From Candidatus Binatota bacterium (lineage in GTDB: Bacteria; Desulfobacterota; Binatia; UBA1149; CAITLU01): 64,000 bases of DNA. Shown piece by piece: positions 18,878 to 56,780 of this stretch. The notes beneath the pieces were generated by a model that searched no databases, had not been told where the DNA came from, and worked only from the letters and a program-made list of their open reading frames with translations. The stretch lies in assembly GCA_024276575.1 (NCBI GenBank), contig JAJRWY010000312.1:1161-65160 (forward strand). The letters are read 5' to 3'. A program made the position numbers and the translations under genes. The first letter of the stretch is position 1; each line of letters starts with the position of its first letter.

Positions 18878-20302
18878 TTGGCGCTAGTCTGCGTGGGGCA
18901 TCCGGCTCTTGTTCATGCTTCGATTAGCCAAGAGAAGAAGATGGGGGAAGAGTTTCTCGCGCAGGCGCGCCTGCAGATCCCCCTGGTTCATGACTACGAG
19001 GTTTTGAGCTTCGTCCGAGAACTCGGAACCCGCTTGGTCGCCACGTTAAAGGATCAGCCTTTCGACTACGAGTTCTTCGTGGTTCGCTCGGACGATATAA
19101 ATGCCTTTGCGGTGCCGGGAGGAAAGATATTTTTTAATGCGGGGCTTATTGCGAGAGTCGAGAGCGAAGACGAGTTGGCTGGTGTCATGGGCCATGAAAT
19201 CGCCCACTCTCATGCTCACCACATAGTTCGGCAAGAGCAAAAGAGTGCCCCAACCAACTATGCAGCTCTGCTCGGCATGCTGCTCACCGTCATTCACCCG
19301 GCACTTGGTGTCGCCGCCCTGTCGGCGGCCAACGCACAAACGCTGAAATATCAGCGTGATTTCGAACGCGAAGCGGATTTCCTGGGAGTCGGCTATGCGC
19401 GCGCAGCCGGTTTCGAAGAGGAGGCTATAATGCACTTGCTTCGCAAGTTGTTTGCGGAGCAGCAACTCAATCCCACGCTTGTTCCTCCCTATTTGAGTTC
19501 GCACCCCTTGACCGGCGAGCGTTTGAGCAACTTGGAGGCGGTGCTGGGGAATAACGAGTGGACGGGTAAGAAACTCGAGCGAAGTTACCGGCTGAAGCGT
19601 GTGCAGGCCATCGTGCGTGGGTTGTCTCAGCGTCGTGAGCAGGTAGTGCCTGAGTTTGAAAGAATGCTCGAGAGCGCCTCTGCGACCGAACGCCCCCTAG
19701 CGCTGGAACTCATGGGAATAATGATGACCCATGGCGAGGACTATGCGCTTGCACGGCCCTACCTCGAACAGGCGCGAGACGCCGGACGTAACGTGGATAG
19801 AGAACTCGGGAGAGTCTATGCACGGCTGGGAATGTCGGAGAAGGCGCTCGAGTATCTGCAGAGGGCTGCCGAGGCGCACCCGGACGATTGGAACGTTTTG
19901 GCGGACCTTGGACGCACGGAGTACCAACTCAAAGACTACGAGGGTGCGAAAGAACACCTGGAGAAGTCGGTACGTTTGTATCCCTACCTGCCGGAGGTGT
20001 TGCGTACTCTGGGAAGAGGGCTTGGAGCCTCGGATCAGGAAGGCGAGGGCTTCTACCGGTTCGGCCAGGCCTCGGAGTTGGAAGGGCATCTGGCGCAGGC
20101 GCACTATTACTACACGAAGGCGCTGGAAACATTGCCCGAAGATCATCCGTTGCGCAAGGAACTCTCCACGCACATGACGGAAGTAGAGGAAGAGGTGGGG
20201 GAAACGGAACCGGTCCCGCATCCGCGCCGCAGGGGAGACCCACCGCGTGACCCCCGCCGCGGGAGGTTCCGGCCTCAGGAAATAGGGCCGGGTATTCAAT
20301 GA
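18878..20302 (+). CDS. M48-family zinc metalloprotease with C-terminal TPR repeats (BepA/YfgC-like)
   Basis: HEIAHSHAHH (HExxH) in an M48 fold, followed by TPR-like repeats and an Arg/Pro-rich C-terminal tail. Confidence 0.75.
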   Translation: MALVCVGHPALVHASISQEKKMGEEFLAQARLQIPLVHDYEVLSFVRELGTRLVATLKDQPFDYEFFVVRSDDINAFAVPGGKIFFNAGLIARVESEDELAGVMGHEIAHSHAHHIVRQEQKSAPTNYAALLGMLLTVIHPALGVAALSAANAQTLKYQRDFEREADFLGVGYARAAGFEEEAIMHLLRKLFAEQQLNPTLVPPYLSSHPLTGERLSNLEAVLGNNEWTGKKLERSYRLKRVQAIVRGLSQRREQVVPEFERMLESASATERPLALELMGIMMTHGEDYALARPYLEQARDAGRNVDRELGRVYARLGMSEKALEYLQRAAEAHPDDWNVLADLGRTEYQLKDYEGAKEHLEKSVRLYPYLPEVLRTLGRGLGASDQEGEGFYRFGQASELEGHLAQAHYYYTKALETLPEDHPLRKELSTHMTEVEEEVGETEPVPHPRRRGDPPRDPRRGRFRPQEIGPGIQ

Positions 20303-31397: not shown

Positions 31398-31703
31398 ATG
31401 TGGCCTTTCGACAATAGCTTCTATGAGGAAATATCGGCTCGGTTCGAAACTCTGCTCAAGGACGGTGAGGACGCCGGAAATACCAATGATCTGTCGGCTT
31501 TGCTTGCTCCGGTGGATCCTTTCAACCGTTCACCCTTGTTTACACCGGTCGTGAAAGCTCTGGGCGTCGCTGCGTTGGTAGCAATGACCGGGCTTGCCGC
31601 AGCCGGTTTAGTCGTGGCCTTCGTTGCTTTCCTCGGTCTTTACTTCTTGCTTACCGAAGTATTCGGTTACGAGCTTTCTCTGGCACCGCTGCAACCGATG
31701 TAG
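31398..31703 (+). CDS. Small hypothetical membrane protein
   Basis: 101-aa ORF with a C-terminal hydrophobic helix, positioned 5 nt after the preceding gene. Confidence 0.4.
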   Translation: MWPFDNSFYEEISARFETLLKDGEDAGNTNDLSALLAPVDPFNRSPLFTPVVKALGVAALVAMTGLAAAGLVVAFVAFLGLYFLLTEVFGYELSLAPLQPM

Positions 31704-32332
31704 ATTGCGTCTTGCCGTACGGCGAGACCGAGTATTAGAGCACAGGCGACGGCTGCCGCATCGCATGCCGCCACCGCGTGCCGCCACTGGCGCAGGTGCT
31801 TGTCGTAGCCACCGGCCTGCCGGCTGCGGTCTGAATAACGCGCGGGGAAATCGAGACCGGATGGTCCGTGATCTTGCGTTCGACGGTGGCTTGGCAAGGC
31901 GCCGTAGTTACGACAATCGCTAAACAGATCAGGAAGCGGTGCCTGTGGATGCACTCCGCAAACGAAACCGCAACCACCGCCATCCGGCTCAAAAGTGTAC
32001 CATACAATCGGTACCGAAGTTTTGCGGGCATGTTCGATTTGGTTCAGATCCGAATGCTCGACTCCCGCTACTATGTAGCAGGCGATAGAAGTGGATGTTT
32101 GTGTAGCTTTGCGACCTCGTCCCCGGAGGCTTTCAATGCCTGGACCATCGCTGCGCGAGGATACGCTGACCCCCGCTGCTCTCAAGTAAAGGGATGCTTG
32201 TTCCACGCCGCGAGGGTGCCCGAGCAGTACCACTGTCGCCGCCAGTAACTTTCCCTGGCCTTCCGCACCGATGCCGGGGATGATGATCTGTCGCGCATAG
32301 CGTTCAATGCTCTCATCATCGAGAGTAGCCAT
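31667..32332 (-). CDS. Divergent E1-like (ThiF/MoeB N-terminal motif) protein with a degenerate nucleotide-binding loop; possibly a pseudogene
   Basis: N-terminus ERYARQIIIPGIGAEGQGKLLAATVVLLG matches the E1 first helix and beta-1, but GxGxxG is replaced by GHPRGV. The remainder resembles no known family. Confidence 0.35.
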   Translation of the reverse strand: MATLDDESIERYARQIIIPGIGAEGQGKLLAATVVLLGHPRGVEQASLYLRAAGVSVSSRSDGPGIESLRGRGRKATQTSTSIACYIVAGVEHSDLNQIEHARKTSVPIVWYTFEPDGGGCGFVCGVHPQAPLPDLFSDCRNYGALPSHRRTQDHGPSGLDFPARYSDRSRQAGGYDKHLRQWRHAVAACDAAAVACALILGLAVRQDAIYIGCSGARESS

Positions 32333-32359: not shown

Positions 32360-32599
32360 TCATTCTATGACGTTCTTCTCTATCGGCTCGACAGTGACGC
32401 CTTGCTCGGCGATCCATCGTACGGCCCGGTCAATCTCGTCTTGCTCACCTTCGAGTTCGAGAGCCATGATGCCCACATGCTCAGAAATCGAAGCACCGCG
32501 TATATTGGTGACCACGCGGAACTTGTGTCCGACGTGGTAAACGATCGGCTCCTTTATCTTCTCTTGGCTGTAGGTCAGGTAGAAACGTTGAAGTGTCAT
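32360..32599 (-). CDS. NIL-domain protein
   Basis: The 79-aa ORF matches the NIL domain pattern seen at the MetN C-terminus (VVTNIRGASISEHVGIMALELEG...VEPI); it overlaps the cysM-like stop by 4 nt. Confidence 0.6.
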   Translation of the reverse strand: MTLQRFYLTYSQEKIKEPIVYHVGHKFRVVTNIRGASISEHVGIMALELEGEQDEIDRAVRWIAEQGVTVEPIEKNVIE

Positions 32600-33579
32600 T
32601 GGTTCTCCTCCGCGGCGGCGAGTTCATGGCGGTCGCGCCAGCCGGTCCACAGATTCGTAGATAAGTAGCGGTCGCCAAAATCGGGTAGCACTACCACCAC
32701 GCACCCGGATTGCAACTCCGCAGCCACTTCCAGTGCTGCGACTACCGCGGCACCGGAGGACTGTCCGACCAGCAGACCTTCTTTGGCGGCCAACTCGTAA
32801 ACCATCTCGTAAGCGGCATCGGTAGCCACACCCACCTTGCGGTCGAAGCCGGATTCGTCGTAAATACCCGGCACGATCGAGCTGCCCATGTGCTTCAAGC
32901 CTTCTATCCCGTGGAAGGCGTCGTCGGGCTCCACGGCTATTATTTCGACCTCAGGCTTGCGCGATCTCAAGTAGCGGCCGCAGCCCATTACGGTTCCGCT
33001 GGTACCGATCGTGGCGAGAAAGTGAGAGACGCGGCCGGCAGTTTGCTCCCAGATCTCGGGTCCTGTGGTCAGGAAGTGGGCCTCCGGATTGGCCGGGTTG
33101 TAGTACTGGTCGGGTTTGAAGTACGCGTCGGGATCGGCGTCGAACATCTTTTTGGCCAAGACGATGGAGCCGTCGGACCCTTCCATCGGATCGGACTCGA
33201 CTATTTCGGCGCCGTAAGCCGCAATCACCCGCAATCGTTCGCGTGAGGCGTTGGCGGGTATCACTAATTTTACCGGATATCCCAGCGCAGCGCCGATCAT
33301 CGCCAGCGCGATGCCGGTGTTGCCGGAAGTAGAATCGAGAATGGTTTTGCCGGGGCGTAAGTGTCCGTCTTCCAATCCACGACGCACCATGTTCCAGGCC
33401 GGGCGGTCTTTGACCGAACCGCCGGGGTTGAAGCCCTCGACTTTGGCGTACACTTCTACACCGCCGGCCAAGTGCGGGGTTACACCTCGCAGTTGGAGCA
33501 ACGGTGTGTCGCCGATCAAGTCGAGTATGCCTGTGGCCTCCGCCTCATTAAGGGTCGGCTGTTGGCGAGTCCGGTGCAC
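32596..33579 (-). CDS. Cysteine synthase family PLP enzyme (CysM/CysK-like)
   Basis: PLP-lysine motif GGSVKDRPAWNMV, IGDTPLLQL substrate-loop region and GTGGT motif. The start is uncertain: GTG at 33579, or TTG at about 33519. Confidence 0.85.
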   Translation of the reverse strand: MHRTRQQPTLNEAEATGILDLIGDTPLLQLRGVTPHLAGGVEVYAKVEGFNPGGSVKDRPAWNMVRRGLEDGHLRPGKTILDSTSGNTGIALAMIGAALGYPVKLVIPANASRERLRVIAAYGAEIVESDPMEGSDGSIVLAKKMFDADPDAYFKPDQYYNPANPEAHFLTTGPEIWEQTAGRVSHFLATIGTSGTVMGCGRYLRSRKPEVEIIAVEPDDAFHGIEGLKHMGSSIVPGIYDESGFDRKVGVATDAAYEMVYELAAKEGLLVGQSSGAAVVAALEVAAELQSGCVVVVLPDFGDRYLSTNLWTGWRDRHELAAAEENQ

Positions 33580-33854
33580 GCGCCGCCGGCGATAGCGGGA
33601 ACGATGGAGATTTCGTCGCCGTCTTTGACGGCGGACTCCAGGTCATCAAGAAAGCGAATGTCATCGCCGTTCACGTAAACATTTACGAAACGCCGTACTG
33701 AACCGTCGCGTTCGCAGATGCGCTCCTTGAGGCCTGGATGGGCTGCCTCGACGCTGTCGAGAACCGCGGCCACGGTCGAGCCTTCTGCGTCGACGGCTTC
33801 GTTGCCGCCTGTAAACTTTCTCAGGGGTGTGGGGATTCTTACCCGGACTGCCAT
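33516..33854 (-). CDS. MoaD/ThiS/CysO-family sulfur-carrier protein with a 21-residue extension after the Gly-Gly
   Basis: Beta-grasp carrier sequence MAVRVRIPTPLRKF...GDEISIVPAIAGG, then ACTGLANSRPLMRRRPQAYST before the stop. A strong RBS (AGGAGG) lies 7 nt upstream of the ATG. The tool ORF has a spurious 77-aa leader. Confidence 0.75.
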   Translation of the reverse strand: MAVRVRIPTPLRKFTGGNEAVDAEGSTVAAVLDSVEAAHPGLKERICERDGSVRRFVNVYVNGDDIRFLDDLESAVKDGDEISIVPAIAGGACTGLANSRPLMRRRPQAYST

Positions 33855-33891: not shown

Positions 33892-35184
33892 TCACGAACC
33901 GGTGGCCGGAGAAGCAATCGTGGAAGCCTGATCGCCGCCGGCTGTCTTGCCGGCTTCAAGACGCTCGTAAAGACGGTCGAATTCGTCGAGACGTGCTGCG
34001 ATATCGTGGGTGACCGGAACCGAATCACGAACCGCCTCGAGGGTCTTGTAGCCGTTGCCGGTAATAGAGATGACGATCGACTCATCTCGGGGTATGCGGC
34101 CTTGCTCTATGAGTTTCTTGGTAACCGCCACCGTGGTGCCCCCGGCCGGCTCGGTAAACACACCTTCCGTACGCGCCAGTAGTTTGATTGCTTCCACTAT
34201 TTCTTCGTCGCTAGCTGATTCACCCCATCCTCCGGAATCCCTGACCGCTCCGAGAACGTAATAGCCGTCGGCCGGGTTGCCGATCGCGATCGACTTGGCG
34301 ATGGTATGAGGCTTTACCGGTTCGATAAGGTCGGTTCCCCGGTGAAGGGCGTTGACGACCGGAGCGCAACCGGCGGCTTGCGCGGAGTATATCTTGAATC
34401 CGCTCTGCTCGACCAAGCCTACCCGCTGCAGCTCTTCAAAGGACTTGGCGACTTTGGGCAAGATGGTGCCGCCGGCGGTAGGAACGACGATGTGTTGGGG
34501 GAGCTTCCAGCCGAGTTGTTCGGCCACTTCGAATCCGTAAGTTTTGGCTCCTTCGGTGTAAAAAGGCCGCAGGTTGATGTTTGCGAAAGCCCAGCCGTAC
34601 TTGTCCGCGATCTCGGTGCACAGGCGGTTAACGTCGTCATAATTGCCGGAGATCGCGACCGGGACCGGGTTGTATATGGCCGATCCCACCACCTTGCCTT
34701 GTTCGAGGTTGTCGGGGATGAAGATGAAGCACCGCAGGCCGGCGCGTGCTGCATGGGCGGAAACGGAATTGGCTAGGTTGCCGGTAGAGGCGCATGCGAC
34801 GGTTTCGAAGCCGAACTCGACCGCTTTGGTCAGCGCGACCGAGACTACGCGGTCCTTGTAGGAGAAGGTCGGGTGGTTGACCGAATCGTCTTTTACGTAG
34901 AGTTCCGAGACGCCGAGCACTTCTGCCAAGCGATCGGCTTTGAGCAAGGGAGTAAAACCTGAATACAGGCCGATACGCGGCTCGGACTCCACCGGAAGCA
35001 ACTCGCGATATCTCCACAGGTTGGGTGGCCTCGCTTCAATGGTCTTGCGATCGACCGCAGCCGATATCTTGTCATAGTCGTATTCTACTTCGAGGGGGCC
35101 AAAGCAGTATTCACAGACGTGGTAGGGCTTGAGTTCGTAAGCCTCGCCACATTCACGGCACTTGAGGCCTTTTACAAAAGACAT
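33892..35184 (-). CDS. Threonine synthase family PLP enzyme with an N-terminal zinc ribbon
   Basis: CRECGE...CEYCFG zinc ribbon, PLP-lysine motif FSYKDR, RBS AAGGAGA; 431 aa counted from MSFVKGLKC. Confidence 0.85.
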   Translation of the reverse strand: MSFVKGLKCRECGEAYELKPYHVCEYCFGPLEVEYDYDKISAAVDRKTIEARPPNLWRYRELLPVESEPRIGLYSGFTPLLKADRLAEVLGVSELYVKDDSVNHPTFSYKDRVVSVALTKAVEFGFETVACASTGNLANSVSAHAARAGLRCFIFIPDNLEQGKVVGSAIYNPVPVAISGNYDDVNRLCTEIADKYGWAFANINLRPFYTEGAKTYGFEVAEQLGWKLPQHIVVPTAGGTILPKVAKSFEELQRVGLVEQSGFKIYSAQAAGCAPVVNALHRGTDLIEPVKPHTIAKSIAIGNPADGYYVLGAVRDSGGWGESASDEEIVEAIKLLARTEGVFTEPAGGTTVAVTKKLIEQGRIPRDESIVISITGNGYKTLEAVRDSVPVTHDIAARLDEFDRLYERLEAGKTAGGDQASTIASPATGS

Positions 35185-35198
35185 GGTAGTTATCTCCT

Positions 35199-35957
35199 TC
35201 AGCGGTCGATGCCGGGCGCTGCAGCGGCGGGCTCGTAACCGCGGGGTCGTGAACGGGTTTCCCCCGAGCGGGAGCATCGCGGGCAAGCGGGATCCCTGGG
35301 GAAATATACATGGCGCCAACGGCACCCTGACAATTCATAGATATTCATGCGGCCGGGACACAGGCTTTTGTCTCCACCAAGGTAACGAAGCGCGTCTTGC
35401 GCTTGTGCGGTTCCCACCAAGCCGGCCACTGGTGCGAGAATGCCCATAGCTGAACAGCCGCCGTCGGCTTCCTGCGGGTGGTCGTCGGGGAAAGCGCATG
35501 CGAGGCAGGCCGACACGCCCGGCACCACGGTCATCCATTGGCCGGTGGTTCTGATCACACCGCCGTAACAGAAAGCGGTGCCGGTCGAGACTGCAACGGC
35601 GTTTATCATGAATTTCGTGGCCGGGTCGTCACAAGCGTCGATCACGAAATCATGAGAGGAAACGAGGCTCTCGGCGTTGCCGGTGTTCAACGTATCTTCG
35701 ATGGGACGAATTTCAGTGGTAACAGGGCCGCCGGCGGATGCGGCTAGAGCCTTACGCGCGGCCTCGGCCTTGGGTGCTCCGACGTCGCTGTCGCCGAACA
35801 AGACCTGCCGCTGCAGGTTCGAAAGCTCGATGCGGTCGGGGTCGATAATCGTGAGTTTGGCAACTCCGGCGCCCACGAGCATGCGCGCGGCAGCGCAACC
35901 GAGGGCGCCGACGCCCACCAACAGAACCGAATCTTTTGTTTGCTGCTGCAAGTACAA
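35199..35957 (-). CDS. ThiF/MoeB-family E1-like adenylyltransferase; start codon uncertain and canonical N-terminal helix absent
   Basis: LLVGVGALGCAAARMLVGAGV...ELSNLQRQ and C-terminal CxxC pairs (CLAC, CPRC). The reading frame runs directly out of the riboswitch terminator U-tract. Confidence 0.8.
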   Translation of the reverse strand: MYLQQQTKDSVLLVGVGALGCAAARMLVGAGVAKLTIIDPDRIELSNLQRQVLFGDSDVGAPKAEAARKALAASAGGPVTTEIRPIEDTLNTGNAESLVSSHDFVIDACDDPATKFMINAVAVSTGTAFCYGGVIRTTGQWMTVVPGVSACLACAFPDDHPQEADGGCSAMGILAPVAGLVGTAQAQDALRYLGGDKSLCPGRMNIYELSGCRWRHVYFPRDPACPRCSRSGETRSRPRGYEPAAAAPGIDR

Positions 35958-35990
35958 AAAAACCTCTTCCAGGCGGGATAAGGAAGAGGT
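35954..35990 (-). terminator. Intrinsic terminator forming the riboswitch expression platform
   Basis: On the minus strand the sequence reads CCUCUUCC-UUAUCCCGCCU-GGAAGAGG-UUUUUUU: a perfect 8-bp stem followed by a U7 tract. The 5' arm can pair with the upstream AUAAGGAGAGG as an antiterminator. Confidence 0.7.
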
Positions 35991-36007
35991 ACTGGGTCGC
36001 GGCGACA

Positions 36008-36165
36008 GGCCTCTCCTTATCTTTCACCCTCTTTGCATTTGCGTGAACTCGATTACGCGCTCACCGCAACGCTAAGGTGCGGGACTTAGCACCTGCCGCC
36101 CGCTTGCGCAGGCCGGTTGCTGTGGCTTCACAGGGCCCATTCCCTCCGCCACTCTGAATAAGGAA
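36008..36165 (-). promoter_or_regulatory. SAM-I (S-box) riboswitch aptamer
   Basis: The minus-strand RNA reads UCCUUAUUCAGAGUGGCGGAGGGAAUGGGCCCUGUGAAGCCACAGCAACC...GGUGCUAAGUCCCGCACC...AUAAGGA. This matches the SAM-I consensus CUUAUCAAGAG-GGCGGAGGGA-UGGCCC-AUGAA-CC-GCAACC / GGUGCUAA-UCC-GCA, including the kink-turn and the J3/4 pseudoknot region. Confidence 0.8.
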
Positions 36166-53278: not shown

Positions 53279-55516
53279 TTGTTTATGAGCGGCGCACCTA
53301 GGCCGGACATCTCCATTTCGCGCGAGGAAAGGGCGCGCCGACGCCGTGAGGTTGCGGTGATTCTCGCGGCCGGTCTTGCGGTGGTGTTCTTTGCCGTGTG
53401 GGAAATCGGCCGGCCGGCTGGGCGTGGAGCCACCGGTAACGTTGTCTCCTTCCTACTGGTAAACCTCAACATAGTTCTGCTTCTAGTCGTGGCGTTCCTG
53501 GTTTTGCGAAACATCGTGAAGCTGGTGATTGACCGGCGCCGGCGTGTCCCGGGTAGCCATCTTCGCGGGCGGCTGGTCTTTGCTTTCGTTACCATTGCGC
53601 TATTCCCGGCGGGTTTGATGCTCGTCATTTCGTATCAATTCGTGACCAGCAACATCGATGATTGGCTCGACAGCGAGGTCGAGCAGTCGCTCGAAGGTGC
53701 CTGGGAACTGGCCCATACCTACTATCGGGATTCTGCGGATGCGGCGCTTGCGCATGCGCGGGCCCTGGCTGCGGAGGCTGTGGAGAAGCGGCTGCTGCAG
53801 CCGTCTTCACGGACGAAATTGCGAGAGTTGGTTCTCGAACACCAGCGCGCTTACAAGCTGGGAACCATCCAGATAGTCAACTCCTCAGGCGAACAGGTAC
53901 TGGCTTTGTTCAACGAATCCACTCCTACCGGGATGCCGCTATATCCGGACGCTGAATTGATGTCAGAGAACCTCGAAGGGCGTGAGGCTACCAAAGTAGA
54001 GGCTTACGGCGAAAGTGACGTGATCAGCGGTGCGGTGCCGATACTCGACAGTAAAGGAAAAGTGCTGGGTGCGGTGGTGGTTGATTATTTCGTTGAGCGC
54101 AGTATCCGGCGCTGGAGTGAAGACATACTGAAATCCTTCAGCGAGTTCCGCCAGCTAAAGCTCAGCAAACAGCCTTTCAAGAATCTCTACGCGATTACTC
54201 TTGCTCTGGCCGCGGTCGCGGTAGTGTTCTCGGCTACATGGCTGGGTATTTATATGGCCCGGGGGGTTACCGACCCCATTGGGCGGTTGGCGGAAGCTAC
54301 TGAACGGGTTGCCGGCGGTGACTGGGAGGTTCGGCTCGAAGAAGCAGGCGGTGACGAAGTCGGCATGCTGGTCAGTGCTTTCAACACCATGACTTCACAG
54401 CTCAAGGCAACCCACGATGATCTCGATGAGAGGCGCCGTTACATCGAGAATGTGCTCGGACATATCGAAGCGGGTGTCGTGTCCATCGATGAAGAGGGGC
54501 GCATCGGTACCGTGAACTCAGCCGCAGTGTCGTTGTTGGGCCTCGACGCTGAAGGGCTTGCGGGGCTAGCTGCGGTAGAGACGTTTCAGGAGGCCGGTTA
54601 CTCGGAAATGGCGTCGCTGTTGAAAGATTTGAGTGCCGGAGTCGTAGCTTCCGGCACCCGTATCAACGTCAAGCGGGAACAGGAAGGGCGGACGCTACTG
54701 GTTACTGCGACTGAGTTGAAGCGCGTGAGTGGTGAGCGGGCGGGCTTCGTTCTTTTTGTCGAAAACGTATCACAGATAGTCGAAGTTCAGAGGATGGAGG
54801 CCTGGCGCGAGGTTGCTAGGCGTATCGCCCATGAGATCAAGAATCCACTGACTCCCATCCAACTGTCGGCGCAAAGGCTGGGCAGGCGCTTGCGTTCACG
54901 GCTCGGCGGGGAAGACGCCGAGCTACTGGAGCGCAGCGTGGAAACGATCGTCTCTCAAGTAGACACATTGAAGCAGTTGGTCAACGAGTTCTCGCGCTTT
55001 GCGCAAAAGTCGGAAGGAGACAAGCGCCTACACGATTTGAACCAGTTGGTCGAGGAGACGATCCCTTTGTACAGCGAGTCGCGCCCTGACATCAAAGTGG
55101 AATTCTCCCGTGCCGAAGAGCTTCCGGCACTGATGTTGGACCGGCAGTCGGTAAAGCGCGTTCTGATCAATCTGCTCGATAATGCGGTGGCGGCTCTTTC
55201 GGCGGACGAGGCCGTGCGTGAAAGCGGCGTCGAGCCGCAAATAGAACTTCGGACCTCTTTTGATGAAAGAACCTCGCGCGTGGTTCTCGAAGTCGCGGAC
55301 AACGGCCCAGGAATCGCTGCCAAGGACAAACCGCGGGTATTCGAGCCGTACTTCTCGACCAAGGACGATGGGACCGGCCTCGGCCTGGCTATTGTTGCTT
55401 CGGTGGCTGCCGACCACCAAGCCTTCGTTCGAGTCAGGGACAACCATCCGCGAGGCAGCCGTTTCGTGATAGAATTTCCCATCGTGCCCAAGGAGAGAGA
55501 GGTCCGAGATGCCTGA
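53279..55516 (+). CDS. NtrY-like sensor histidine kinase (2 TM, HAMP, PAS, HisKA, HATPase)
   Basis: Two N-terminal TM helices, HAMP and PAS regions, H-box HEIKNPLTPIQLSAQRL, N-box LLDNAVAAL, G1 DNGPGI and G2 GTGLGLAIV. Confidence 0.85.
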   Translation: MFMSGAPRPDISISREERARRRREVAVILAAGLAVVFFAVWEIGRPAGRGATGNVVSFLLVNLNIVLLLVVAFLVLRNIVKLVIDRRRRVPGSHLRGRLVFAFVTIALFPAGLMLVISYQFVTSNIDDWLDSEVEQSLEGAWELAHTYYRDSADAALAHARALAAEAVEKRLLQPSSRTKLRELVLEHQRAYKLGTIQIVNSSGEQVLALFNESTPTGMPLYPDAELMSENLEGREATKVEAYGESDVISGAVPILDSKGKVLGAVVVDYFVERSIRRWSEDILKSFSEFRQLKLSKQPFKNLYAITLALAAVAVVFSATWLGIYMARGVTDPIGRLAEATERVAGGDWEVRLEEAGGDEVGMLVSAFNTMTSQLKATHDDLDERRRYIENVLGHIEAGVVSIDEEGRIGTVNSAAVSLLGLDAEGLAGLAAVETFQEAGYSEMASLLKDLSAGVVASGTRINVKREQEGRTLLVTATELKRVSGERAGFVLFVENVSQIVEVQRMEAWREVARRIAHEIKNPLTPIQLSAQRLGRRLRSRLGGEDAELLERSVETIVSQVDTLKQLVNEFSRFAQKSEGDKRLHDLNQLVEETIPLYSESRPDIKVEFSRAEELPALMLDRQSVKRVLINLLDNAVAALSADEAVRESGVEPQIELRTSFDERTSRVVLEVADNGPGIAAKDKPRVFEPYFSTKDDGTGLGLAIVASVAADHQAFVRVRDNHPRGSRFVIEFPIVPKEREVRDA

Positions 55517-56780
55517 GACGATTTTGCTTGTAGATGACGATGCCAAGGTTCGCGAATCGATACGTGGCGTTCTCGGAGATGAAGGCTATGAGGTCGTAAC
55601 TGCATCCAACGGCGTTCAGGCCATGGATGCGGTTGCGGTGCATAACCCCGATCTCATCTTGCTTGATTTGTGGATGCCGGAGATGGATGGCATCGAGTTC
55701 TTACAGCAGGCTGGGTCCGGGGACTCGGCGATTCCGGTGATCGTGATCTCGGGCCACGGCAACGTGGAAACGGCGGTCCGCGCGACCAAGCTTGGAGCCG
55801 TGGATTTCGTCGAGAAGCCGTTTTCCATCGACGGGCTTCTAGCGGCGGTAAACGGAGCCTTGAATCGTTTCTCCCCCGACGAAGGTGCCGCTAGCGTCGT
55901 GGCCGGGCAATTGCCTTCGGCCGGTGGCGCGACGGCTGGTGTCAGCCAGCGCACGTTGGCGCAAAGCGTGGTCGGTGGCGGACTCGGCTTACATAGCGGG
56001 GTGAGGACCGGATTGATCTTGCAGCCGATGCCGCCGGGGAGCGGGATAAGTTTTGCGAGTATAGCGGGCGAGGGCAAAGTGCTCGCACATGTGGACAACG
56101 TGGATTCCACCGGCTACGCGACCACACTGTTCGACAAGGGGACGGTTGCGCGAACGGTAGAACATCTCATGGCGACCCTGCACGCTTATGGGATCACCAA
56201 TCTGCTGGTGAAGATAGAAGGCGAAGTGCCGATTCTAGACGGCTCAGCGGCCGAACTCTGCCAGTTGATAGACTCGGTTGGTGTAGAAGACCAGCCCTCG
56301 GCCATCGCTCCCATAGTGATCGAGGAGGAAGTGCGCATAGACGCCGGTCCGGACGAATTCATCGTGATTCGTCCTCATGACGGTTTCGAAGTAACCTACG
56401 AACTTTCTTATCCGCCGCCGGTGGGGGAACAGAGTTACACATTTTGCTTCGAAGGAGCCGGGTCGTTTCGTTCGCAGATCGCTCCGGCGCGTACCTTCGG
56501 CTTTGTCGAGGAGATCCGCGCGTTGGAAGGAGCGGGGCTAGGCCAGGGAGGACAGCTGAGCAACTTTATACTGATCGGCGAGGGCAGGATCGTCAACACC
56601 GAATTACGCTTCCCCGAGGAACTCGCGCGCCACAAGATCCTTGATATCATGGGAGATTTCTATCTCCTCGGGGCACCGATACGAGGCTCGCTGCACGCGC
56701 GAAAAACCGGGCATTCGCAGAACATCGCGTTGATGCGATTGCTAAGCGAGGGCAGAGGGAGAAGCGCGTCGAGTCGTTGA
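55509..56780 (+). CDS. lpxC: Response-regulator receiver domain fused to UDP-3-O-acyl-N-acetylglucosamine deacetylase
   Basis: Receiver residues 1-120 carry all phospho-acceptor positions (LLVDDD, LLDLWMP, VISGHG, FVEKP). Residues ~135-423 are a complete LpxC with RTL...GLGLHSG, EHLMATLHAYGI, HKILDIMGDFYLLG and KTGHSQN zinc and catalytic motifs. It is a single uninterrupted ORF that overlaps the kinase stop by 8 nt. Confidence 0.8.
   Translation: MPETILLVDDDAKVRESIRGVLGDEGYEVVTASNGVQAMDAVAVHNPDLILLDLWMPEMDGIEFLQQAGSGDSAIPVIVISGHGNVETAVRATKLGAVDFVEKPFSIDGLLAAVNGALNRFSPDEGAASVVAGQLPSAGGATAGVSQRTLAQSVVGGGLGLHSGVRTGLILQPMPPGSGISFASIAGEGKVLAHVDNVDSTGYATTLFDKGTVARTVEHLMATLHAYGITNLLVKIEGEVPILDGSAAELCQLIDSVGVEDQPSAIAPIVIEEEVRIDAGPDEFIVIRPHDGFEVTYELSYPPPVGEQSYTFCFEGAGSFRSQIAPARTFGFVEEIRALEGAGLGQGGQLSNFILIGEGRIVNTELRFPEELARHKILDIMGDFYLLGAPIRGSLHARKTGHSQNIALMRLLSEGRGRSASSR

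What the first reader, a model, noticed from the sequence alone, without database searches (positions are those of the whole stretch)
33516..33580. Sulfur-carrier gene encodes 21 residues past its Gly-Gly, overlapping the CysM-like start in another frame
The MoaD/CysO-like ORF reads ...SIVPAIAGG and then continues ACTGLANSRPLMRRRPQAYST before the stop. There is no in-frame stop after GG, so the activatable C-terminus is masked unless it is proteolytically removed. Known carriers with tails (one extra residue in Wolinella HcyS, two in Pseudomonas QbsE) need a JAMM-family protease, and I see no HxHx7Sx2D JAMM gene in or beside this operon. The tail-coding DNA also overlaps the first ~20 codons of the CysM-like gene (GTG start), unless that gene starts at a TTG that forms a TTGA start/stop overlap with the carrier gene's stop codon.
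Basis: seen in the sequence. Interest (0 to 1): 0.6.

Follow-up and report, generated by a model that had tools for sequence, protein, structure and literature searches.

The report
Sulfur-carrier gene that lost its stop codon
A small sulfur-carrier protein used to make methionine and cysteine is encoded with 21 extra residues after its reactive Gly-Gly end, most likely because its stop codon mutated; relatives commonly carry such tails, so this is a long but ordinary variant.

Summary
The minus-strand ThiS/MoaD carrier (33516-33854) reads ...SIVPAIAGG, then 21 more codons, then TGA. Those codons overlap the first 21 codons of the CysM-like gene, which starts at GTG 33579, in another frame.

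It is not an oddity of kind. Of the 120 closest homologues, 97 carry one residue after GG, 17 carry 2-38, and only 2 end at GG. Across 80 species representatives, 47 have tails, and 28 of those have no JAMM gene within 10 kb. Some carriers are fused to a NIL domain or to a second carrier.

The closest relative (92% identical) reads GCG-TGA where the window reads GCG-TGC. The tail is therefore best explained as a one-base stop loss. Its length is what out-of-frame read-through gives by chance (P(>=21 codons) = 0.36).

A fully syntenic relative has a 12-residue tail in two independent assemblies. The literature already describes a 10-residue tail (CxnE) removed by a JAMM protease.

The operon sits behind a SAM riboswitch and looks like a CysO/MetO thiocarboxylate pathway.

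No JAMM gene lies in the 64-kb window. Binataceae genomes encode one at an unlinked locus. Whether this genome has one could not be tested.

The parts
36014..36164 (-). SAM riboswitch aptamer (RF00162), the leader of the operon
   Evidence: 75.8 bits against a gathering score of 44.4, E 5.5e-16, full model 1-108. The same element precedes the operon in L002, L091, L004, L047 and L024.
35956..35989 (-). Hairpin CCTCTTCC(35989-35982)/GGAAGAGG(35970-35963) followed by a run of seven T. It is the likely expression platform, acting as a terminator and/or by sequestering the Shine-Dalgarno-like GGAAGAGG.
   Evidence: Read directly. Its function is inferred, not tested.
35199..35957 (-). ThiF/MoeB-type E1 adenylyltransferase. 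It has the GxGxxG motif but lacks the N-terminal RYxRQ helix and has no rhodanese domain.
   Evidence: Pfam ThiF E 1.9e-60, residues 8-226 matching profile positions 20-237. NCBIfam ThiF/MoeB hits are below the equivalog cut-offs. Motif check.
33892..35187 (-). Threonine-synthase-like PLP enzyme, probably a MetM-type homocysteine synthase
   Evidence: Pfam PALP E 7.5e-64. NCBIfam PRK08197 scores 312 against a cut-off of 303. It lies directly upstream of the carrier, behind a SAM riboswitch, as reported for metM/metO. The start at ATG 35187 (MSFVKGLKCREC...) is chosen from the ORF.
33582..33854 (-). Carrier proper: a ThiS/MoaD beta-grasp domain of 91 aa ending in Gly90-Gly91 (codons 33587-33582)
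   Evidence: It is 70-92% identical to hundreds of homologues, and the last eight residues SIVPAIAGG are nearly invariant.
33516..33581 (-). 21-codon tail ACTGLANSRPLMRRRPQAYST plus the TGA stop. This is read-through into the 5' end of the CysM-like gene, in the +1 frame relative to it.
   Evidence: The nearest relative L001 has GCG-TGA where the window has GCG-TGC. No homologue has a similar tail.
32596..33579 (-). CysM-like cysteine synthase (327 aa from GTG 33579)
   Evidence: Pfam PALP E 1.3e-69. TIGR01138 cysM scores 361.5, below its cut-off of 394. The GTG start is supported by the N-terminal length in related loci.
32360..32599 (-). Stand-alone NIL-domain protein (79 aa). Its start overlaps the CysM stop by 4 nt.
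   Evidence: Pfam NIL E 6e-15. It holds the same position in related operons. It is fused directly after the carrier's GG in L030 and L034.
31667..32332 (-). Degenerate E1-like protein ('dE1', 221 aa). It has the RYARQ N-terminal helix but no GxGxxG nucleotide loop.
   Evidence: No Pfam hit. Weak NCBIfam MoeB/MoeZ hits cover residues 2-57 only. It is 37% identical to the 161-aa gene at the same position in L002. Alignment and motif pattern.

Best explanation
This is a CysO/MetO-type sulfur-carrier gene whose TGA stop, which lay one codon after Gly-Gly inside a GTGA start/stop overlap with the next gene, changed to TGC. Translation therefore runs 20 further codons, out of frame, through the 5' end of the CysM-like gene until the next stop.

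The 112-aa product is a precursor. The carrier family routinely carries residues after GG, so the cell must already have an activity that cuts after GG. That activity is most likely a Mec/HcyD-type JAMM metalloprotease, the enzyme class known to hydrolyse the carrier-Cys amide made by CysM and to trim HcyS. In this lineage it would be encoded away from the operon. It would remove the 21 residues as it removes the usual one.

The exposed Gly91 is then adenylated by the operon's E1 and converted to a thiocarboxylate. The thiocarboxylate feeds the ThrC-like (MetM-type) enzyme and the CysM-like enzyme to make homocysteine and cysteine, and a SAM riboswitch controls the whole operon.

Shown here: the sequence, the family-wide tails, the stop-codon difference from the nearest relative, the operon content, the riboswitch, and the absence of a JAMM gene from the window.

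Inferred: that the tail is translated and cleaved, which protease does it, and the enzymology of each step.
For: - Stop loss: L001 (carrier 92% identical) reads GGA GGC GCG TGA with a GTGA overlap. The window reads GGC GGC GCG TGC ACC.
- The tail is unconstrained. No homologue shares it. Its length is what read-through gives by chance.
- Tails are normal in the family. Among the 120 closest homologues, 97 have 1 residue (a variable one), 17 have 2-38, and 4 are tandem carrier-carrier proteins. Among 80 GTDB species loci the counts are 33 with no tail, 36 with 1-2, 8 with 4-24 and 3 NIL fusions.
- A long tail is real in a syntenic relative. L091 (an NCBI MAG) and L092 (an independent Logan assembly) carry an identical 12-aa tail, and L091 has no JAMM gene within 10 kb.
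- JAMM genes accompany the family in 25 of 80 loci, including loci with 24-aa and 80-aa extensions (L077, L034).
- Binataceae MAGs, from the class that holds the window's closest species-level relatives, encode Prok-JAB proteins of this family at a conserved unlinked locus.
- Published precedent: the CxnE decapeptide and CxnF (PMC5925218); Mec needed for MetO maturation (bioRxiv 10.1101/2024.10.14.618325); MoaX cleavage necessary for activity (PMC4326299).
- Pathway assignment: the closest solved structures are CysO-type carriers. The SAM riboswitch is conserved across operon types.
- All other operon genes are intact.
Against: - No JAMM gene or other obvious candidate protease lies in the 64-kb window. 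The rest of the genome could not be examined.
- The Binataceae JAMM loci come from other genomes, and I could not link one to a genome that has this operon type.
- The critical base is supported by a single public contig, so a base-call error is not excluded.
- Nothing shows that a Mec-type enzyme accepts a 21-residue tail on this carrier. The longest published case I could read is 10 residues, and there the cleavage was proposed rather than shown in that paper.
- The role of Mec in releasing the CysM product comes from my knowledge of the M. tuberculosis system (Burns et al. 2005), not from a tool result.
Confidence: 0.6

Rival explanations
1. The tail is a base-call or assembly error. The real sequence is GCG-TGA, as in the nearest relative, and the carrier ends GGA like most of its family.
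For: One base separates the two readings. The sequence exists in only one public contig. No second assembly of this lineage was found. One other long-tailed homologue, P0073 (38 aa), comes from a contig with 1.27x coverage.
Against: Consensus substitution errors are uncommon in a roughly 70-kb contig; this rests on general knowledge, since coverage is unknown here. Long tails are real elsewhere: the 12-aa tail of L091 is identical in an independent assembly. Tails of 4-24 residues occur in 8 of 80 species representatives. The surrounding genes show no frame disruptions.
Confidence: 0.12
2. The tail is real and removed, but not by a JAMM protease. Operons of this type (ThiF-ThrC-carrier-CysM-NIL-dE1) would use another GG-specific peptidase or an activity of the operon's own proteins.
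For: None of the 15 such loci L002-L016, nor L091, nor the window, has a JAMM gene within about 10 kb, although most of their carriers have tails. These operons instead always carry dE1 and usually NIL, both of unknown role.
Against: dE1 and a JAMM gene co-occur in L066, L068, L070, L076 and L082, so dE1 does not replace the JAMM protease. dE1 aligns as a degenerate ThiF with poor conservation outside the N-terminal helix, and I saw no conserved hydrolase-like residues. Binataceae genomes do encode JAMM proteins of this family at unlinked loci.
Confidence: 0.15
3. The stop loss inactivates the carrier. The tail is never removed, and this copy is non-functional or on its way to being lost.
For: GG is masked as encoded, and no protease gene is at hand.
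Against: The carrier domain is fully conserved at all 38 positions that are invariant across the family alignment. The five other operon genes and the riboswitch are intact. Tails are tolerated throughout the family.
Confidence: 0.06
4. The tail is functional: a regulatory propeptide, or a device that couples carrier and CysM translation through the 64-nt overlap and the TTGA at its end.
For: Start/stop overlaps between the carrier gene and the CysM-like gene are common in related loci, so coupling does matter at this junction.
Against: The tail sequence is unique to this contig and absent from the 92%-identical relative. Its sequence is dictated by the CysM-like gene's own poorly conserved N-terminal codons. 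The TTG start that the TTGA overlap would serve gives a CysM truncated to 1 residue before IGxTPL.
Confidence: 0.04

Closest known systems
Mycobacterium tuberculosis CysO-CysM-Mec thiocarboxylate cysteine pathway (PDB 3dwg/3dwm)
   Same: The carrier matches CysO at E 1e-22 over its full length, with the terminal GG aligned to G90-G91. A CysM-type PLP enzyme is encoded immediately downstream. An E1 of the MoeB/ThiF family activates the carrier.
   Different: CysO ends at GG, whereas this carrier has 21 more residues. From my knowledge of that system, mec (a JAMM gene) lies next to cysO in M. tuberculosis; none lies within this 64-kb window. From the same knowledge, the mycobacterial E1 (MoeZ) carries a rhodanese domain and is unlinked. 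Here the E1 is in the operon, lacks a rhodanese domain and is accompanied by a degenerate paralogue.
Streptomyces albulus MetM/MetO homocysteine pathway (Hasebe et al. 2024, AEM; known to me only through citing papers)
   Same: A threonine-synthase-like enzyme is encoded next to a ThiS/MoaD carrier behind a SAM riboswitch. Mec is reported as required for MetO maturation, which makes MetO a precursor-type carrier too.
   Different: Here one carrier is flanked by both a MetM-like and a CysM-like enzyme, plus NIL and two E1-like genes, all in a single riboswitch-controlled operon. I could not compare tail lengths or sequences because the primary paper is not held.
Precursor-type sulfur carriers trimmed by JAMM proteases: HcyS/HcyD (Wolinella), QbsE/QbsD (Pseudomonas), CxnE/CxnF (Actinoplanes)
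   Same: Residues follow the GG and must be removed before adenylation. CxnE has a 10-residue tail, and its best database match in that paper is a Dadabacteria MoaD protein. A Dadabacteria MoaD/ThiS protein, P0055, is also among this carrier's close homologues (PMC5925218).
   Different: In those systems the JAMM gene sits in the same cluster; here it does not. The tail here is longer (21 residues) and lies inside the next gene in another frame.
MoaX of M. tuberculosis (a MoaD-MoaE fusion) and eukaryotic ubiquitin precursors
   Same: A beta-grasp carrier or modifier is made with a C-terminal extension or fusion that has to be cut away. For MoaX, cleavage is necessary for activity (PMC4326299, title). 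The family studied here likewise has carrier-NIL and carrier-carrier fusions.
   Different: Those extensions are conserved, functional partners or repeats. The window's tail is a unique, apparently accidental read-through.

Membership tests
ThiS/MoaD beta-grasp sulfur carriers (Pfam PF02597) | Sequence match to the family profile over the whole domain | tested here: met
   PF02597 E 7.2e-19, 68.5 bits against a cut-off of 22.5, residues 5-91 matching profile positions 1-76 of 76. PDB hits to CysO, MoaD and SAMP1.
ThiS/MoaD beta-grasp sulfur carriers (Pfam PF02597) | Gly-Gly is the C-terminus of the encoded protein | tested here: not met
   GG is at residues 90-91 and 21 residues follow. The same holds for 118 of the 120 closest homologues, so the feature fails for the subfamily as encoded and can be met only after processing.
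CysO/MetO thiocarboxylate amino-acid biosynthesis system | Carrier gene adjacent to a CysM-type and/or ThrC-like (MetM-type) PLP enzyme | tested here: met
   The ThrC-like gene lies 37 nt upstream and the CysM-like gene overlaps downstream. The arrangement is conserved in L002-L022 and L091.
CysO/MetO thiocarboxylate amino-acid biosynthesis system | Cognate MoeB/ThiF/MoeZ-type E1 adenylyltransferase | tested here: met
   ThiF domain E 1.9e-60 in the first gene of the operon. Neither E1-like protein has a rhodanese domain.
CysO/MetO thiocarboxylate amino-acid biosynthesis system | Mec-type JAMM hydrolase (carrier-Cys hydrolase and maturation protease) | tested here: inconclusive
   Absent from the 64-kb window. 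The rest of the genome is not available. It is present in the operon in 25 of 80 related species loci and at unlinked loci in Binataceae MAGs.
CysO/MetO thiocarboxylate amino-acid biosynthesis system | Regulation by methionine/SAM status, as reported for metM | tested here: met
   SAM riboswitch RF00162, 75.8 bits, directly upstream of the operon. It is conserved in five related loci of three operon types. The S. albulus metM riboswitch is reported in PMC12172450.
CysO/MetO thiocarboxylate amino-acid biosynthesis system | Formation of a carrier thiocarboxylate and its use by the PLP enzymes | not testable with these tools
   This needs biochemistry: mass spectrometry of the carrier, or an assay with O-phosphoserine or O-phosphohomoserine.
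Precursor-type carriers trimmed by a cluster-encoded JAMM protease (HcyS/QbsE/CxnE type) | Extra residues after GG | tested here: met
   21 residues.
Precursor-type carriers trimmed by a cluster-encoded JAMM protease (HcyS/QbsE/CxnE type) | JAMM gene (ExnHxHx7Sx2D) in the same gene cluster | tested here: not met
   None in the window, nor in the syntenic loci L002, L003 and L091.
SAMP/Urm1-type ubiquitin-like protein modifiers (NCBIfam NF041918 SAMP1) | Score above the curated equivalog cut-off | tested here: met
   69.4 bits against a cut-off of 60. This explains the 'ubiquitin-like small modifier protein 1' names given to homologues. The model evidently does not separate bacterial CysO-type carriers.
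SAMP/Urm1-type ubiquitin-like protein modifiers (NCBIfam NF041918 SAMP1) | Covalent conjugation to lysines of target proteins | not testable with these tools
   No computational test exists. The operon context (PLP sulfhydrylases, SAM riboswitch) points to sulfur transfer rather than protein modification.

The most novel reading that the evidence does not exclude
Operons of the window's type (ThiF-ThrC-carrier-CysM-NIL-dE1, found in Binatia-like lineages) would mature their tailed carriers, and release the CysM product, without any JAMM protease. They would use an undescribed GG-specific peptidase or an activity of the operon's own uncharacterised proteins. The 21-residue tail would then be a natural substrate of that unknown activity.
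Probability: 0.1. Interest if true: 0.6.

Novelty: new member of a known kind. Interest (0 to 1): 0.25.

Why it matters
The tail itself matters little. It is an extreme but unremarkable length variant in a family where residues after Gly-Gly are the rule and where a trimming protease is already known.

It is useful in three ways.
- It warns annotators that 'GG at the C-terminus' is not a property of these genes as encoded.
- Stop-codon position drifts freely in this family, from 0 to 38 residues (the longest, P0073, comes from a 1.27x-coverage contig and may be an error), plus whole-domain fusions. This is evidence that post-GG cleavage tolerates very different lengths.
- It points to an open question for a large uncultured group: where the processing and release protease is encoded when it is not in the operon.

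The surrounding operon is of more interest than the tail. One SAM-riboswitch unit combines MetM-like and CysM-like enzymes, a NIL protein and what looks like a split E1.

Tried and rejected
- Independent copies of the junction. An exact-pattern scan of metagenome contigs with N at the critical base found nothing. A CysM-based scan of the same collection found relatives of at most 67% identity. Position look-ups for the window's NIL and carrier proteins found no record. The window's genome is not among the GTDB species representatives; the best carrier match is 77%. I therefore could not confirm or refute the TGC base.
- Primary papers. Hasebe et al. 2024 (PMC11497804) and Krishnamoorthy & Begley 2011 (PMC3089676) are not held. 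What I say about them comes from citing papers or from my own knowledge, and is marked as such.
- dE1 as the missing protease. Rejected: it aligns as a degenerate ThiF, co-occurs with JAMM genes in five loci, and shows no conserved hydrolase-like residues.
- TTG at 33519-33517 as the CysM start. Rejected on N-terminal length.
- Third-codon-position GC in the 64-nt overlap, counted by hand. It is about 71% in the carrier frame and 73% in the CysM frame, so it does not discriminate.
- Other peptidases in the window. The only one found is an M48/TPR protein at 18878-20302. I take it to be a BepA-like envelope protease, unrelated to this system.
- Linking a JAMM gene to a genome with this operon type. 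The assembly accessions of the Binataceae JAMM loci do not match any of my loci (against 9, 14, 49). Protein accessions are not recorded for these MAG proteins, so that route was dropped.
Full report
**1. What is in the sequence**

The finding lies in a six-gene operon on the minus strand. In order, the genes are:
- a ThiF/MoeB-type E1 (35199-35957);
- a threonine-synthase-like PLP enzyme (33892-35187);
- a ThiS/MoaD carrier (33516-33854);
- a CysM-like PLP enzyme (32596-33579);
- a 79-aa NIL-domain protein (32360-32599);
- a 221-aa degenerate E1-like protein (31667-32332).

The carrier reads MAVRVRIPTPLRK...SIVPAIAGG, continues ACTGLANSRPLMRRRPQAYST and ends at TGA. The Pfam ThiS profile ends exactly at the GG. 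The C-terminal GG of the two closest solved carriers, 4n6e_B (E 6e-26) and M. tuberculosis CysO 3dwg_C (E 1e-22), aligns to G90-G91.

The CysM-like ORF begins at GTG 33579, inside the first two tail codons. The two genes therefore overlap by 64 nt in different frames.

**2. Tails are the rule in this family**

A search of about 5.8 billion proteins returned thousands of homologues that are 70-92% identical over the 91-residue domain. The 120 best break down as follows:

| Residues after GG | Number of 120 |
|---|---|
| 0 (ends at GG) | 2 |
| 1 (variable: R, A, L, F, H, K, C, V, S, N, D, T, Y, I) | 97 |
| 2-38, unrelated in sequence | 17 |
| tandem carrier-GG-carrier-GG (182-188 aa) | 4 |

A scan of one genome per GTDB species gave 80 loci from Binatia, 'Deltaproteobacteria', Myxococcota, Zetaproteobacteria, Thermodesulfobacteriota, Verrucomicrobiota and other groups. 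Their tails were:

| Residues after GG | Loci of 80 | Of these, with a JAMM gene in the locus |
|---|---|---|
| 0 | 33 | 6 |
| 1-2 | 36 | 15 |
| 4-24 | 8 | 3 |
| about 80 (NIL domain fused after GG; truncated to 46 aa in L031) | 3 | 1 |

The window's 21 residues are at the long end of a continuum. They are not a different kind of thing.

**3. Where this tail came from**

The nearest relative is P0001/L001, whose carrier is 92% identical. It reads ...GGA GGC GCG TGA, with its CysM-like gene starting at the GTG of a GTGA overlap. The window reads ...GGC GGC GCG TGC ACC. One transversion in the third base of the stop codon accounts for the tail.

In the CysM frame, that change would alter only codon 2. 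The following codons differ between the two sequences in any case, because the CysM N-terminus is poorly conserved.

No homologue has a similar tail. Reading this window's genes in the +1 frame gives a mean of 20 codons to the next stop, and at least 21 codons in 36% of cases. The length therefore needs no explanation beyond chance.

**4. Are long tails real?**

The window's 112-aa product is in the public collection exactly as I read it, but from a single 69,691-bp NCBI contig. I found no second assembly of this lineage, so a base error cannot be excluded.

Long tails are nevertheless genuine in the family. L091 (GCA_016218925.1) is syntenic with the window, from PolA and the ECF sigma factor on one side to the tyrosine phosphatase, YfiO and ArsA genes on the other. 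It carries a 12-residue tail, APMSVASPLAAA. An independent Logan assembly, L092, has the identical sequence.

**5. The CysM start**

In related operons of the same type, 9 to 37 residues (mostly 19-32) precede the conserved IGxTPL motif. The window's GTG gives 21 residues. The TTG that would form a TTGA overlap with the carrier's stop gives 1. The GTG start, and with it the 64-nt overlap, is the supported reading.

**6. The protease question**

The window has no JAMM gene. Three checks agree:
- There is no HxHx6-9SxxD motif in an open frame.
- There is no hit to an HMM built from 22 JAMM proteins found in related loci.
- There is no Pfam JAB hit among 49 of the larger ORFs.

Across the 80 species loci, 25 have a JAMM gene (ECCG...HSHPx7SxxD) inside the operon. 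These include loci with 24-residue and 80-residue extensions. Still, 28 of the 47 tailed loci have no JAMM gene within 10 kb. None of the 15 loci L002-L016 that share the window's operon type has one.

A profile search with these JAMM proteins found 'Candidatus Binataceae' proteins. In four assemblies they lie at a conserved locus with no carrier gene, overlapping an ApbA/PanE-like reductase gene by 4 nt. So genomes of the Binatia class do encode this protease family away from the operon. I could not show this for a genome that has the window's operon.

From established knowledge of the M. tuberculosis pathway (Burns et al. 2005, my recollection), Mec is needed in every turnover to hydrolyse the CysO-Cys amide. 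From my recollection of Krishnamoorthy & Begley 2011, HcyD both trims HcyS and releases homocysteine. A GG-X peptide bond is the same kind of bond as that amide. This would explain why stop-codon position is free to drift.

Published precedent for longer tails and for maturation by Mec:
- The CxnE decapeptide SEAARAEESR, proposed to be cleaved by CxnF (PMC5925218).
- MetO maturation requiring Mec (bioRxiv 10.1101/2024.10.14.618325).
- Cleavage of the MoaX fusion being necessary for activity (PMC4326299, title).

**7. What the operon does**

A SAM riboswitch (RF00162, 75.8 bits, E 5.5e-16) lies at 36014-36164, directly upstream of the first gene. A hairpin CCTCTTCC/GGAAGAGG with a T run follows it and reaches the start codon.

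The same riboswitch precedes the operon in L002, L091, L004, L047 and L024, which represent three different operon layouts. S. albulus metM, a threonine-synthase homologue that makes homocysteine from O-phosphohomoserine and MetO thiocarboxylate, is also reported to have a SAM riboswitch (PMC12172450).

I read the operon as a thiocarboxylate pathway in which one carrier serves both a MetM-type and a CysM-type enzyme. This is inference from homology and context.

**8. Verdict**

It is a new member of a known kind: a precursor-type sulfur carrier. Its tail is unusually long and probably accidental. Interest is low (0.25).

The open point is where operons of this type encode their processing and release protease. 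The reading in which they use no JAMM protease at all is not excluded; I put it at about 10%.

Noticed in passing
window 35956-36164 (-): A SAM riboswitch (RF00162, 75.8 bits) with a downstream hairpin and T run controls the whole carrier operon. The same element precedes related operons in Binatia-like, Zetaproteobacteria and Verrucomicrobia loci.
   Followed up: yes
window 35199-35957 (-) and 31667-32332 (-); L002-L022, L033, L036, L037, L066-L076: Apparent split E1. Where the degenerate E1-like gene (dE1) is detected, the ThiF next to ThrC has GxGxxG but no N-terminal RYxRQ helix, and dE1 has no GxGxxG. Of the 24 loci with both genes, dE1 carries an RYxRQ-type motif in 22 (not in L006 or L082). 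In all 18 loci whose operon ThiF has an N-terminal RYxRQ, that ThiF also has GxGxxG, and no separate dE1 is detected. In nine further loci the ThiF lacks RYxRQ but no dE1 was detected either (L007, L017, L028, L039, L042, L050, L056, L078, L081). From my recollection of E1 structures, this resembles the active/inactive adenylation-domain pairs of eukaryotic E1 enzymes. I did not test it structurally.
   Followed up: partly
L030 8068-8679, L034 9884-10513, L031 462-908: The carrier is fused directly after GG to an 80-aa NIL domain (truncated in L031). This links the stand-alone NIL protein of the window's operon to the carrier, and it implies either cleavage after an internal GG or a carrier that is never activated.
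   Followed up: partly
proteins P0002, P0004, P0017, P0018: Tandem carrier-GG-carrier-GG proteins of 182-188 aa, arranged like a di-ubiquitin precursor. All come from short contigs.
   Followed up: no
L084 6949-8498, L085, L087, L089, L090: In Binataceae MAGs a Prok-JAB (Mec-like) gene overlaps the end of an ApbA/PanE-like reductase gene by 4 nt at a conserved locus with no carrier gene. The chuangxinmycin cluster likewise pairs a dehydropantoate-reductase homologue (CxnC) with a carrier and a JAMM protease (PMC5925218).
   Followed up: partly
L002 11994-14684 and L003 7389-10079, compared with window 31400-31700: The relatives L002 and L003 have a radical SAM gene and a Na+/sulfate-symporter-family gene directly after dE1. 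The window and L091 lack both.
   Followed up: no
window 55509-56780 (+): A response-regulator receiver domain fused to the N-terminus of an LpxC deacetylase domain, directly after a histidine kinase gene.
   Followed up: no
protein P0089: Its 16-residue tail, APSTTGCVQAIAGGTR, contains a second AIAGG motif. This suggests a short duplication of the carrier's C-terminal coding segment.
   Followed up: no
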